Assembly: GCF_009914755.1 (NCBI RefSeq)
Contig: NC_060931.1
Direction: 5' to 3' (one strand)
Source: the human T2T-CHM13v2.0 reference genome, Homo sapiens
Length of the DNA: 64,000 bases
Both the position numbers and the translations under genes were made by a program. The notes beneath the pieces were generated by a model that was not told the DNA's origin, ran no database searches, and was given only the letters and a program-made list of their open reading frames with translations. Position 1 is the first letter of the stretch; each line of letters starts with the position of its first letter. This document shows positions 24,496 through 29,203 of the stretch, one piece after another.

Positions 24496-25680
24496 CCAAA
24501 GAAGATTTACAGATGGCAAATAAGCATGGGGCCAGACGCGCGACATCCTTTGACGTGAGGGAGCGCCCATGAAAATAGCAGTGAGGCACCGCACACCTGT
24601 CACGATAGCCCAAATCCAGAGACCGACATCACCAAATGCGGGTGAGGATGTGGAGCAACAGGAATGCACTCATCGCTGTGGGAAGTGACTGCAAAATGGC
24701 ACAGTCACTTGGAAGTCAGCTGGTGGTTTCTTACCAAAGTTGGCAAAATCCTGCCACAGGATTCAGCAAATGTGCCCCTTGGTATTCACCCACATGAACT
24801 CAAAATTTAGGTTCACATGAAACCTGCACACAGATATTTCGAGCAGTTTTATTCATAACTGCCACAGATTGGAAGCAACCAAGATGCCCTTCAGTAGGGG
24901 ACTGGATAACTGTAGTCCATCCAGACAGCACAAGAAAGGCTCTGTCATGCCGTGAAAAGACGTGAGCAAGTTTAACAGCATTCTGCGAAGTGACAGGTGC
25001 CGGCTGAAAAGGCTGCACGCTGTGGGGTCCCACCGCATGACATTCTGGAACAGGTAGCACCATGGAGCCAGGAAAGGGTTCCGTGGTGGTCAGTGGTGGT
25101 GGGGAGGGAGGGATGAATGGGTGGTGCACAGGGCCCTTTTGGGGCAGTGAAGCTGCTGCGTGTGGTGCTGTAACAGTGGATGCACAGTGGATATTCATTT
25201 ATCAAAACCCACAGAGCATGCCATACCAAGAGGGGCCCCCCATAAGCTGCGGACTTCGGGCGGTTGTGCTGTGGCCATGTAGGGTTCGGGTGCTCGTGCT
25301 GTGGCCGTGCAGGGTTCGGGTGCTCGTGCTGTGGCCGTGCAGGGCTCGGGTGCTCGTGGTGTGGCCGTGCAGGGCTCGGGTGCTCGTGCTGTGGCCGTGC
25401 AGGGCTCGGGTGCTCGTGGTGTGGCCGTGTAGGGTTCGGGTGCTCGTGGTGTGGCCGTGTAGGGTTCGGGTGCTCGTGGTGTGGCCGTGTGGGGTTCGGG
25501 TGCTCGTGGTGTGGCCGTGTAGGGTCATCACTGTTGTAAATGCACTATTCAGGGTGCAGGGTGTTGATAATGGGGGAGGCCGTGCATGTGTGTCAGGAGG
25601 GTGTACATGCAAACTCCATCATCTGCTCAATTTTGCTGTGAACCTAATATTACTCTTAAAAAAAAGTCTATTAAAAAAAA
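24496..25680 (+). mobile_element. L1M(A/B)-type 3' fragment
   Basis: cagatggcaaataagcatg...ttggaagcaaccaagatgcccttcagtagg...tgctcaattttgctgtgaacctaa plus A-rich end. Confidence 0.8.
25253..25525. repeat. 30-bp VNTR, ~9 copies, inside the L1 3' UTR
   Basis: gggtgctcgtg(c/g)tgtggccgtg(c/t)agggttc units. Confidence 0.93.
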
Positions 25681-25683
25681 TCC

Positions 25684-26292
25684 GATAGGGGAAGATGGCG
25701 GCTGCTCCTTTGGAGGAGCGGGATTGAGAGGATCGGGGTGGGGAGACCAAACAAGAGAGACATTTCTGGCTCTGAAGGCGAACGCTTCGCTGGCCATTTA
25801 GGAGCTCTGCTCAAAGCCAGACGGCCAAGCGTGGTGGCTCATGCCTGTAGTCCCATCACTTTGGGAGGCTGAGGCAGGAGTATCTCTTGAGCCTAGGAGA
25901 TGGAGACCGGCCGGGGCAGCATGTCGAAACCCTGTCTCTACTAAAAATAAAAAAAATTAGCCAGGCGTGGTGGCATGCGCCTGTAGTCCAAGCTATTCTG
26001 GAGGCTGAGGTGAAAGGATTGCTTGAGCCTGGGAGGCGGAGGCTGCAGTGAGCCGAGATCACACCACTGCACTCCAGCCTGGGTGACAGAGTGAGACCCT
26101 GTCTCAAAAAAAAATTTTTTTTAGCAAACCAGTAATAGAAAGGATTTACTTCAGTCTGATAAAGGGCATCTACAAAAAATCTGTAGTTATGTCATACTTA
26201 ATAGTAAAGGAGAAATGCCTCCTCCCTAAAGTTTGGAACAGTACAATAAGGCAAGAAAAAGAAATGAAAAGGCTTTTAGAACAGAAAGGAAG
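25684..26292 (+). mobile_element. 5' transduction of the SVA insertion: foreign first-exon-like segment (25684-25823), Alu (25823-26114) and L1 fragment (~26123-26292)
   Basis: Lies inside the TSD AAAAAAAATCC (25673-25683 / 29192-29202). The first 140 nt are non-repeat, with YY1 motif AAGATGGCGGC, and resemble the WDR33 5' UTR as recalled. Confidence 0.8.
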
Positions 26293-29191
26293 ATGCGGAG
26301 CCGAAGCTGGACTGTACTGCTGCCATCTCGGCTCACTGCAACCTCCCTGCCTGATTCTCCTGCCTCAGCCTGCCGAGTGCCTGCCATTGCAGGTGCGCGC
26401 CGCCACGCCTGACTGGTTTTGGTGGAGACGGGGTTTCGCTGTGTTGGCCGGGCCGGTCTCCAGCCCCTAACCGCGAGTGATCCCGCCAACCTCAGCCTCC
26501 CGAGGTGCCGGGATTGCAGACGGAGTCTCGTTCACTCAGTGCTCAATGGTGCCCAGGCTGGAGTGCAGTGGCGTGAATCTCGGCTCACTACAACCTACAC
26601 CTCCCAGCCGCCTGCCTTGGCCTCCCAAAGTGCCGAGATTGCAGCCTCTGCCCGGCCGCCACCCCGTCTGGGAAGTGAGGAGCGTCTCTGCCTGGCCGCC
26701 CATCGTCTGGGATGTGAGGAGCCCCTCTGCCTGGCTGCCCAGTCTGGAAAGTGAGGAGCGTCTCCGCCCGGCCGCCATCCCATCTAGGAAGTGAGGAGCG
26801 CCTCTTCCCAGCCGCCATCACATCTAGGAAGTGAGGAGCGTCTCTGCCCGGCCGCCCATCGTCTGAGATGTGGGGAGCGCCTCTGCCCCGCCGCCCCATC
26901 TGGGATGTGAGGAGTGCCTCTGCCCGGCCGAGACCCCGTCTGGGAGGTGAGGAGCGTCTCTGCCCGGCCGCCCCGTCTGAGAAGTGAGGAGACCCTCTGC
27001 CTGGCAACCACCCCGTCTGAGAAGTGAGGAGCCCCTCCGCCCGGCAGCTGCCCTGTCTGAGAAGTGAGGAGCCTCTCCGCCCGGCAGCCACCCCATCTGG
27101 GAAGTGAGGAGCATCTCCGCCCGGCAGCCACCCCGTCCGGGAGGGAGGTGGGGGGGGGTCAACCCCCCGCCCGGCCAGCCGCCCCATCTGGGAGGGAGGT
27201 GGGGGGTCAGCCCCCCCGACCGGCCAGCCGTGCCATCCGGGAGGGAGGTGGGGGGGTCAGCCCCCCACCTGGCCAGCCATGCCGTCCGGGAGGGAGGTGG
27301 GGGGGTCAGCCCCCCGCCCGGCCAGCCACCCCGTCCGGGAGGTGAGGGGTGCCTCTGCCCGGCCGCCCCTACTGGGAAGTGAGGGGCCCCTCAGCCCGGC
27401 CAGCCACCCCGTCCGGGAGGGAGATGGGGGGGTCAGCCCCCCAACCCGGCCAGCCGCCCCGTCCGGGAGGGAGGTGGGGGGGTAAGCCCCCCGCCTGGCC
27501 AGCCGCCCCGTCCGGGAGGGAGGTGGGGGGGTCAGCCCTCCGCCCGGCCAGCCGCCCCGTCCGGGAGGTGAGGGGCGCCTCTGCCCGGCCGCCCCTACTG
27601 GGAAGTGAGGAGCCCCTCTGCCCGGCCAGCCGCCCCGTCCGGGAGGGAGGTGGGGGGGTCAGCCCCCCGCCTGGCCAGCCGCCCTGTCCGGGAGGGAGGT
27701 GGGGGGGTCAGCCCTCCGCCCGGCCAGCCGCCCCGTCTGGGAGGTGAGGGGCGCCTCTGCCCGGCCGCCCCTACTGGGAAGTGAGGAGCCCCTCTGCCCG
27801 GCCAGCCGCCCCGTCCGGGAGGGAGGTGGGGGGGTCAGCCCCCCGCCTGGCCAGCCGCCCTGTCCGGGAGGGAGGTCGGGGGGTCAGCCCTCCGCCCGGC
27901 CAGCCGCCCCGTCTGGGAGGTGAGGGGCGCCTCTGCCCGGCCGCCCCTACTGCGAAGTGAGGAGCCCCTCTGCCCGGCCAGCCGCCCCGTCCGGGAGGGA
28001 GGTGGGGGTGTCGGCCCCCCGCCCGGCCAGCCGCCCCGTCCGGGAGGGAGGTGGGGGGGGTCAGCCCCCCTGCCCGGCCAGCTGCCCCGTCCGGGAGGTG
28101 AGGGGCGCCTCTGCCCGGCCGCCCCTACTGGGAAGTGAGGAGCCCCTCTGCCCGGCCAGCCGCCCCGTCCGGGAGGGAGGTGGGGGTGTCAGCCCCCCGC
28201 CCGGCCAGCTGCCCCGTCCGGGAGGGAGGTGGGGGGGGTCAGCCCCCCCGCCCGGCCAGCCGCCCCGTCCAGGAGGTGAGGGGCGCCTCTGCCCGGCCGC
28301 CCCTACTGGGAAGTGAGGAGCCCCTCTGCCCGGCCAGCCGCCCCGTCCGGGAGGGAGGTGGGGGTGTCAGCCCCCCGCCCGGCCAGCCGCCCCGTCCGGG
28401 AGGGAGGTGGGGGGGGGGGTCAGCCCCCCCGCCCGGCCAGCCGCCCCGTCCGGGAGGTGAGGGGCGCCTCTGCCCGGCCGCCCCTACTGGGAAGTGAGGA
28501 GCCCCTCTGCCCGGCCAGCCGCCCCGTCCGGGAGGGAGGTGGGGGGGTGTCAGCCCCCCCGCCCGGCCAGCCGCCCCGTCCGGGAGGTGAGGGGCGCCTC
28601 TGCCCGGCCGCCCCTACTGGGAAGTGAGGAGCCCCTCTGCCCGGCCACTACCCCGTCTGGGAGGTGTGCCCAACAGCTCATTGAGAACGGGCCAGGATGA
28701 CAATGGCGGCTTTGTGGAATAGAAAGGCAGGAAAGGTGGGGAAAAGATTGAGAAATCGGATGGTTGCCGTGTCTGTGTAGAAAGAAGTAGACATGGGAGA
28801 CTTTTCATTTTGTTCTGCACTAAGAAAAATTCCTCTGCCTTGGGATCCTGTTGATCTGTGACCTTACCCCCAACCCTGTGCTCTCTGAAACATGTGCTGT
28901 GTCCACTCAGGGTTAAATGGATTAAGGGCGGTGCAAGATGTGCTTTGTTAAACAGATGCTTGAAGGCAGCATGCTCGTTAAGAGTCATCACCAATCCCTA
29001 ATCTCAAGTAATCAGGGACACAAACACTGCGGAAGGCTGCAGGGTCCTCTGCCTAGGAAAACCAGAGACCTTTGTTCACTTGTTTATCTGCTGACCTTCC
29101 CTCCACTATTGTCCCATGACCCAGCCAAATCCCCCTCTGTGAGAAACACCCAAGAATTATCAATAAAAAAATAAATTTAAAAAAAAAAAAA
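26293..29191 (+). mobile_element. SVA retrotransposon (SVA_F-like) lacking the hexamer head: Alu-like domain, VNTR, SINE-R, poly(A)
   Basis: Start atgcggagccgaagctggactgtactg; GC-rich VNTR ~26650-28660; SINE-R to AATAAA at 29162-29167; A-tail; F-type motifs ctggttttggtggagac and gggccaggatgacaatggcggctttgtgg. Confidence 0.96.
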
Positions 29192-29203
29192 AAAAAAAAT
29201 CCA

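What the first reader, a model, noticed from the sequence alone, without database searches (positions are those of the whole stretch)
25673..29202. SVA_F insertion carrying a 5'-transduced foreign first exon (probably WDR33 exon 1)
Seen: the TSD AAAAAAAATCC (25673-25683 and 29192-29202, at a TT|AAAA L1-endonuclease site) brackets the SVA plus ~610 bp upstream of it. That extra DNA starts with 140 nt of non-repeat, TSS-like sequence (YY1 motif AAGATGGCGGC at 25692; mini-ORF MAAAPLEERD* at 25695-25727). It joins abruptly to the start of an Alu, then an L1 fragment, then an SVA lacking its CCCTCT head. Recall, unverified: the 140 nt match the 5' UTR/first exon of WDR33 on chr2. Inference: a transcript from the donor promoter spliced from exon 1 to a cryptic acceptor upstream of an intronic SVA, polyadenylated at the SVA and was retrotransposed by L1. 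This is analogous to the established MAST2-exon-1 SVA_F1 group but with a different donor gene.
Basis: partly seen in the sequence, partly recalled or inferred. Interest (0 to 1): 0.85.

Follow-up and report, generated by a model that had tools for sequence, protein, structure and literature searches.

The report
SVA copy carrying WDR33 exon 1
This is a retrotransposed SVA element that picked up the first exon of the WDR33 gene by RNA splicing before it was copied from chromosome 2 to chromosome 7, a clear single-copy example of an already described way in which SVA elements shuffle exons.

Summary
Window 25684-29191 is one retrotransposed unit between two copies of AAAAAAAATCC, which occurs only twice in the window.

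**Donor exon.** Bases 25685-25823 are 100% identical to chr2:128246251-128246389 (-). This is the only other match in the assembly, and a GTGAGT donor follows it there.

**Source SVA.** Bases 25824-29191 match chr2:128225378-128222088 (-), about 20.9 kb downstream on the same strand. There an AG acceptor precedes the stretch, and the SVA has its own target-site duplication.

**Gene identity.** Exon-sized frames further downstream are identical to PDB chains of WDR33, including residues 1-69. The source SVA therefore lies between the non-coding first exon and the first coding exon of WDR33.

**Other points.**
- Base 25684 (G) is not templated by chr2 and may derive from the mRNA cap.
- Daughter and source differ at 12 substitutions in 1498 non-VNTR bases.
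- There are no sibling copies in this assembly.
- The mechanism is established in print, and a 2016 paper lists WDR33 among promoters trapped by SVAs.

**Not tested.** The SVA_F label, the empty site in apes and insertion polymorphism could not be tested.

The parts
25673..25683 (+). Left target-site duplication AAAAAAAATCC, preceded by TT (TT|AAAA L1 endonuclease-type site)
25684..25684 (+). Single G not templated by the chr2 donor, which has C. It is either a cap-derived G or an untemplated 5'-junction base.
   Evidence: match starts at query base 2; searches compared
25685..25823 (+). Copy of the non-coding first exon of WDR33 (139 nt, 139 of 139 identical to chr2:128246389-128246251). It contains a YY1-like AAGATGGCGGC (25692-25702) and a 10-codon ORF (25695-25727).
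25824..26122 (+). Alu with A/T tail copied from WDR33 intron 1. It starts at the Alu's second base, because the first G is part of the AG acceptor in the source.
26123..26293 (+). Old L1 (ORF2 region) fragment copied from WDR33 intron 1. Its last 15-16 bases (26278-26293) are the upstream copy of the source SVA's own target-site duplication.
26294..26643 (+). SVA Alu-like domain, starting TGCGGAGCC with no CCCTCT hexamer head. The start is the same in the source.
26644..28664 (+). SVA VNTR of about 2.0 kb. It includes a 176-bp higher-order repeat (6.4 copies, 96% matches). It is collinear with the source apart from a 126-bp and a 49-bp repeat-unit indel.
28665..29161 (+). SVA SINE-R domain. 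All 40 scored genomic places match at 99-100% (1654 first-look candidates).
29162..29191 (+). Two AATAAA signals (29162-29167 and 29170-29175) and the poly(A) tail (29179-29191, running into the TSD A's)
29192..29202 (+). Right target-site duplication AAAAAAAATCC

Best explanation
An SVA lacking its hexamer head sits, in the sense direction, in the first intron of WDR33 on chromosome 2, inside an old L1 remnant.

The proposed sequence of events is:
1. A transcript started at the WDR33 promoter.
2. Its first exon was spliced from the normal GT donor to a cryptic AG acceptor. That AG is formed by the base before an intronic Alu plus the Alu's first G, and lies 471 bp upstream of the SVA.
3. The transcript ran through the Alu, the L1 piece and the SVA, and was polyadenylated at the SVA's own AATAAA.
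4. The L1 machinery reverse-transcribed this full-length capped RNA into a TT|AAAA site on chromosome 7. This gave an 11-bp target-site duplication and possibly one extra G from the cap.

The result is a single daughter copy. It lies antisense in a CHLSN intron, 4.3 kb upstream of GPR146 and in the same orientation as GPR146.

Shown: the sequence identities, the GT and AG at the junctions, the source's own target-site duplication, the daughter's duplication and poly(A) tail, and the single-copy status. Inferred: transcription, splicing, L1-mediated insertion in the germ line, and the cap origin of the G.
For: - **Unique donor match.** One search found 2 of 2 genomic places for 25684-25823: the window itself and chr2:128246251-128246389 (-), 100% over bases 2-140.
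- **Donor site and promoter.** In one search the exon copy ends ...CCAGACG|GTGAGT. Upstream is CpG-rich and promoter-like, and the copy starts at an A preceded by C.
- **Source SVA.** In one search, window 26090-26330 matches over its whole length at only two places: itself and chr2:128224871-128225112 (-). The other 39 reported matches cover only the SVA or L1 part.
- **Collinearity.** Searches align window 25823-26660 to the source at 98.8% and 28640-29197 at 99.1%. The source reads ...tttttacAG|GCCAAGCG at the acceptor.
- **Source's own duplication.** The source SVA is flanked by GAACAGAAAGGAAGA. The upstream copy was carried to chr7.
- **Gene identity.** Searches match WDR33 PDB chains collinearly on the same strand: residues 1-69 (E 3e-42), 209-252, 241-284 and 283-336. 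The first coding exon lies about 15.9 kb beyond the SVA.
- **Differences between copies.** Searches give 0 of 139 differences in the exon. The Alu, L1 and Alu-like part has 8 substitutions and 2 indels in 820 bases, and SINE-R has 4 substitutions and 1 indel in 539. The VNTR is collinear.
- **Private changes.** In one search, each of the 4 SINE-R differences is private to one copy against 14 other young SVAs (3 in the daughter, 1 in the source). This is what independent decay after copying would give.
- **Hallmarks.** Searches show the duplication, the poly(A) tail and the endonuclease-type site.
Against: - No gene table for chr2 was available, so 'exon 1 of WDR33' rests on position, strand, donor site and the PDB-identified coding exons.
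- No ape or second human genome could be searched, so neither the empty site nor the age is shown directly.
- The informative part of the target-site duplication is short: TCC plus an A-run next to a poly(A) tail.
- The extra G could be an ordinary untemplated junction base rather than cap-derived.
- No RNA data were examined for the exon 1 to Alu splice.
Confidence: 0.95

Rival explanations
1. Reverse-transcriptase template switching. An SVA read-through RNA that began in the WDR33 intron was being copied by L1 reverse transcriptase, which then jumped onto a separate WDR33 mRNA. The exon was joined without splicing.
For: Template switching during L1-mediated retrotransposition is described for SVA transductions (PMC12593883, passages read). 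No RNA evidence for the splice was examined here.
Against: - The junction falls exactly at the last base before GTGAGT on the exon side and exactly after an AG with an upstream pyrimidine-rich run on the intron side.
- A random switch would have to hit both points by chance.
- There is no microhomology beyond a single ambiguous G.
Confidence: 0.03
2. DNA-level rearrangement. A segmental duplication or recombination brought chr2 sequence to chr7, with no RNA intermediate.
For: None specific. Both loci share more than 3 kb at about 99% identity.
Against: - 20,872 bp are removed precisely between a GT and an AG.
- The copy ends in a poly(A) tail directly after AATAAA, where the source continues with its own duplication and L1 sequence.
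- The copy is bounded by an 11-bp duplication at a TT|AAAA site.
- It begins at a C|A initiator-like position within 1 nt of the duplication.
Confidence: 0.01
3. Reverse direction. The chr7 element is the parent and the chr2 intronic SVA derives from it.
For: None.
Against: - The chr2 SVA has its own 15-bp duplication inside a continuous L1 ORF2 remnant, and lacks the exon next to it.
- The chr7 copy carries the upstream half of that duplication as internal sequence.
- The exon on chr2 sits in its promoter and intron context.
Confidence: 0.01

Closest known systems
Human SVA_F1 (MAST2 exon 1 fused to SVA_F; Damert 2009, Hancks 2009, Bantysh and Buzdin 2009). These were seen only as cited in PMC6139936 and PMC12593883; the 2009 papers themselves were not held.
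   Same: The first exon of a host gene is spliced from its normal donor to a cryptic acceptor, so that an intronic sense-oriented SVA comes under the gene's promoter. The product is polyadenylated at the SVA and retrotransposed by L1. The hexamer head is absent.
   Different: [quoted passage not shown] Here the acceptor is intronic, 471 bp upstream of the SVA. The whole Alu-like domain is kept, together with an Alu and an L1 piece.
- SVA_F1 amplified to 84 or more copies. This one is a single copy.
- The donor gene differs.
Spliced exonic 5' transductions in polymorphic SVAs (MRPS18A, LINC02916, UQCRC1; PMC12593883, passages read)
   Same: Single or low-copy SVA insertions whose 5' transduction contains a spliced exon plus intronic sequence upstream of the source SVA. 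In that paper the transduction starts within a few bases of exon 1.
   Different: Those are non-reference polymorphic insertions from other genes. LINC02916 and UQCRC1 use the normal exon 1 to exon 2 splice and then read through into the intron. Here a cryptic acceptor in intron 1 is used.
Chimpanzee pt_SVA_D6 (STK40 exon 1; PMC6139936, passages read)
   Same: First-exon capture by splicing, with the exon-derived sequence ending at the exon's 3' end.
   Different: It is a chimpanzee-specific family of 94 copies, and its exon replaces the Alu-like domain.
'Promoter-trapping' list in Pugacheva et al. 2016 (PMC5007689, passages read)
   Same: [quoted passage not shown] Only one SVA in this assembly carries WDR33 exon 1. 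The entry therefore most likely means this element or its chr2 source.
   Different: Coordinates and structure are in Table S3 and Figure S5, which could not be opened. The main text does not describe the splice junction, source, target-site duplication or copy number.

Membership tests
SVA (SINE-VNTR-Alu) composite retrotransposon | (CCCTCT)n hexamer head | tested here: not met
   One search found one CCCTCTCCCTCT-like match in the window (1 mismatch allowed), at 8238, outside the element. The source also starts at TGCGGAGCC directly after its duplication. The SVA was therefore already 5'-truncated at its chr2 insertion.
SVA (SINE-VNTR-Alu) composite retrotransposon | Alu-like domain, GC-rich VNTR and SINE-R in that order, shared with many dispersed copies | tested here: met
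   - VNTR arrays span 26644-28664.
- The first 38-39 nt of the Alu-like start match at 97-100% in 32 further places.
- SINE-R matches at 99-100% in 40 of 40 scored places.
- The domain names are recalled; no repeat library was available.
SVA (SINE-VNTR-Alu) composite retrotransposon | AATAAA, poly(A) tail, target-site duplication and L1 endonuclease-type target | tested here: met
Spliced 5'-transduction (exon-trapping) SVA | Extra 5' sequence inside the duplications that equals a gene's first exon and ends at its GT donor | tested here: met
Spliced 5'-transduction (exon-trapping) SVA | Downstream partner preceded by AG, in the same gene and on the same strand, next to the source SVA | tested here: met
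SVA_F1-type subfamily | Acceptor inside the SVA Alu-like domain, so that the exon replaces that domain | tested here: not met
   The acceptor is at the start of an intronic Alu 471 bp upstream of the SVA, and the Alu-like domain 26294-26643 is retained.
SVA_F1-type subfamily | Amplification into multiple copies sharing the exon head | tested here: not met
   One search found 2 of 2 places, the element itself and the donor exon. One search found no further copy of the L1/SVA junction.
   No Dfam or Repbase consensus was available. It is shown only that SINE-R belongs to a very homogeneous cohort: 40 of 40 scored copies at 99-100%. This fits a young subfamily.

The most novel reading that the evidence does not exclude
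The captured WDR33 head begins at the transcription start and carries a YY1-type element 8-18 nt downstream of it. It may give this SVA a promoter of its own, as the MAST2 exon is reported to do for SVA_F1. The chr7 copy would then be a potential founder of a new exon-headed SVA lineage. It could also act as an upstream alternative promoter or enhancer for GPR146, which lies 4.3 kb downstream in the same orientation. A RefSeq enhancer tile (25404-25925) overlaps its 5' end.
Probability: 0.08. Interest if true: 0.5.

Novelty: already known. Interest (0 to 1): 0.25.

Why it matters
This is a fully reconstructable example of exon shuffling by SVA. Donor exon, splice donor, cryptic acceptor, source element and daughter are all present in one assembly, and the 5' end lies at the transcription start.

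It shows that an intronic SVA can act as a gene trap for WDR33, a core polyadenylation factor. It also shows that a cryptic acceptor outside the SVA can serve. It adds no new principle: the mechanism is established, and WDR33 is already listed in print as an SVA-trapped promoter.

Tried and rejected
- **Rfam.** A scan of 25000-30000 gave 0 matches.
- **Pfam.** Scans of L1-like frames from the source and related loci gave no relevant family. Of 8 frames, 0 hit a retroelement domain. One frame gave a chance-level ANKRD13_C hit at E 0.087.
- **PDB.** Searches with two L1-like frames of the source gave 0 hits. Only a frame from a related locus matched L1 ORF2p.
- **Papers not held.** Damert 2009 and Hancks 2009 were not held, so their genome-wide 5'-transduction inventory could not be checked.
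- **Supplements.** Those of PMC5007689 were closed.
- **Literature searches:**
  - SVA + retrotransposon + GPR146: 0 papers.
  - SVA + retrotransposon + C7orf50: 0 papers.
  - WDR33 + SVA + transduction: 4 papers, none relevant judging by the listing.
- **Subfamily.** Typing as E or F was considered and dropped for lack of a labelled consensus.
- **Rivals.** DNA-level duplication, template switching and reversed parentage were considered and rejected (see rival explanations).
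Full report
**What is in the sequence**

- AAAAAAAATCC occurs at 25673-25683 and 29192-29202. These are the only two matches in the window (0.03 expected; 0 of 100 shuffles reached 2).
- The left copy is preceded by TT, giving a TT|AAAA target.
- The right copy follows a poly(A) tail that starts at 29179, after two AATAAA signals (29162-29167 and 29170-29175).

Between the two copies lie, in order:
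- a single G (25684)
- 139 nt of non-repeat sequence (25685-25823), containing AAGATGGCGGC (25692-25702) and the ORF MAAAPLEERD* (25695-25727)
- an Alu with its A/T tail (25824-26122)
- an interspersed-repeat fragment (26123-26293)
- an SVA without the hexamer head, made up of an Alu-like domain (26294-26643), a VNTR (26644-28664) and a SINE-R (28665-29161)

The only CCCTCT-repeat-like match in the window is at 8238, outside the element. Rfam finds nothing in 25000-30000.

**Where the 5' head comes from**

The assembly holding the window could be searched. Window 25684-25823 has exactly two places (2 candidates, 2 scored). One is the window itself. The other is chr2:128246251-128246389 on the minus strand, 100% identical over query bases 2-140.

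On chr2 the matched stretch is followed directly by GTGAGT. A CpG-rich, promoter-like region precedes it, and the match begins at an A preceded by C. The first base of the insert, G at 25684, is C on chr2 and so is not templated.

An extra G at the 5' end of full-length L1-mediated copies is commonly ascribed to copying of the mRNA cap. That is recalled knowledge and was not tested. An ordinary untemplated junction base is the alternative.

**Where the rest comes from**

Window 26090-26330 spans the repeat fragment and the SVA start. It matches over its whole length only at its own place and at chr2:128224871-128225112 (-). The other 39 reported matches cover only the SVA part (97-100% over 38-39 nt) or the repeat part (75-83%).

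Alignment to the fetched chr2 region gives:
- window 25823-26660 aligned to the source at 98.8% (8 mismatches and 2 gaps in 839)
- window 28640-29197 aligned at 99.1% (4 mismatches and 1 gap in 558)

On chr2 the sequence before the match reads ...tttcatgataatttttacAG|GCCAAGCG. The copied stretch therefore begins exactly after an AG that follows a pyrimidine-rich run. The G of that AG is the first base of the Alu. The removed interval, chr2:128246250-128225379, is 20,872 bp and has GT...AG ends.

The chr2 SVA (128224907-128222088) starts with the same TGCGGAGCC. It is flanked by its own direct repeat GAACAGAAAGGAAGA, and the upstream copy of that repeat is carried inside the chr7 element at 26279-26293. 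After its poly(A) tail the source continues with its duplication and more repeat sequence, whereas the chr7 copy continues with the chr7 duplication. There is therefore no 3' transduction, and the direction chr2 to chr7 is unambiguous.

**Which gene**

No gene table for chr2 was available, so I fetched 120 kb downstream on the minus strand. I listed stop-to-stop frames and sent four of them to the PDB sequence search. All four gave 'pre-mRNA 3' end processing protein WDR33' as the identical match, collinear along the strand:

| Frame | Residues of chain 8e3i_B | E-value |
|---|---|---|
| L022:2-238 (-), chr2 ~128206020-128206223 | 1-69 | 3e-42 |
| L023:2268-2438 (-) | 209-252 | 2.6e-20 |
| L027:5889-6047 (-) | 241-284 | 2.6e-29 |
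| L027:4283-4462 (-) | 283-336 | 7.9e-34 |

In some searches some repetitive WD40 designer proteins scored higher overall, through many weak repeats. The WDR33 rows are the single-stretch matches.

The order on the strand is therefore: non-coding exon, 20.9 kb of intron, the Alu/L1/SVA stretch, 15.9 kb of intron, then the first coding exon of WDR33. That the 139 nt are 'exon 1 of WDR33' is a strong inference from position, strand, donor site and promoter context. It was not read from an annotation.

**The repeat fragment**

Pfam found nothing relevant in frames from the source or in six frames of related loci. Two PDB searches with source frames found nothing.

A frame from locus L006 did match LINE-1 ORF2p residues 699-774 (E 1e-9). 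That frame lies 300 bp downstream of the stretch homologous to window 26121-26202. The chr2 flank after the source SVA encodes ...LFADD..., the same motif region. The 'L1 fragment' reading is thus supported indirectly.

**Divergence and age**

| Segment | Differences between daughter and source |
|---|---|
| Exon copy | 0 of 139 |
| Alu + L1 + Alu-like (820 nt) | 8 substitutions, 2 single-base indels |
| SINE-R (539 nt) | 4 substitutions, 1 indel |
| VNTR (about 1.86 kb aligned) | 25 mismatches; 126 bp extra in the daughter; 49 bp extra in the source |

- In the 820-nt part, six of the eight substitutions are at CpG sites. These include an adjacent pair where each copy lost the same CpG differently.
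- One of the four SINE-R substitutions is at a CpG.
- The VNTR is collinear apart from the two repeat-unit indels.
- Against 14 other near-identical SINE-R copies, 3 of the 4 SINE-R differences are private to the daughter and 1 is private to the source. Both copies share a variant at 28729 with 5 of the 14. This fits parent and offspring diverging independently.
- Five non-CpG substitutions in about 1498 bp is roughly 0.17% per lineage. Scaled to human-chimpanzee divergence (recalled values), this suggests about 1-4 million years, with a wide Poisson error. The estimate is an inference only.

**Copy number and presence elsewhere**

No other copy of the exon head or of the L1/SVA junction exists in this assembly, so the element has neither siblings nor offspring here.

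The RefSeq enhancer tile 25404-25925 in the hub's table runs uninterrupted across the left junction. This suggests that the insertion is also in GRCh38, where such features are defined. That too is an inference.

**Mechanism**

The best reading, with about 95% confidence, is this. A WDR33-promoter transcript spliced from exon 1 to a cryptic intronic acceptor 471 bp upstream of a sense-oriented intronic SVA. It was polyadenylated at the SVA and was retrotransposed by L1.

Template switching, DNA-level duplication and reversed parentage are each contradicted by one or more of these findings:
- the exact GT/AG junction
- the poly(A) tail and target-site duplication
- the source's own duplication

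**Comparison with what is known**

- Splicing of upstream exons to or near SVAs, followed by 5' transduction, is established. [quoted passage not shown]
- MRPS18A, LINC02916 and UQCRC1 are described in PMC12593883 (passages).
[quoted passage not shown] Its Table S3 could not be opened.
- The two 2009 papers with the genome-wide inventory were not held.
- PMC10681720 does not mention WDR33 in its main text.
- Searches for SVA with GPR146 or C7orf50 found no paper.

The element differs from SVA_F1 in three ways. The acceptor lies outside the SVA, the Alu-like domain is retained, and the element did not amplify.

**Verdict**

This is a well-resolved instance of an already known process, and probably an already listed element. 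Interest is low to moderate.

Noticed in passing
window 25255-25525: A 30-bp minisatellite (9.0 copies, 94% matches) ends about 150 bp upstream of the insertion. It lies within the two RefSeq enhancer tiles 24881-25403 and 25404-25925.
   Followed up: no
window 29203-29520: A sense-oriented Alu begins directly after the right target-site duplication. The SVA therefore inserted into the A-rich sequence just 5' of a pre-existing Alu.
   Followed up: no
window 27445-28592: The SVA VNTR has a 176-bp higher-order repeat (6.4 copies, 96% matches). Daughter and source differ here by 126-bp and 49-bp unit indels, which shows VNTR length change since the copying event.
   Followed up: partly
L018 (chr2:128219500-128227500), minus strand: The source SVA lies inside an old L1 ORF2 remnant that an Alu also interrupts. 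The cryptic acceptor AG is formed by the Alu insertion junction itself: the flank's A plus the Alu's first G.
   Followed up: partly
window 28729 and loci L031-L044: A shared A/G variant at a former CpG splits the near-identical young SINE-R copies. A is found in the daughter, the source and 5 of 14 other copies; G is found in the other 9. It could serve as a lineage marker.
   Followed up: no
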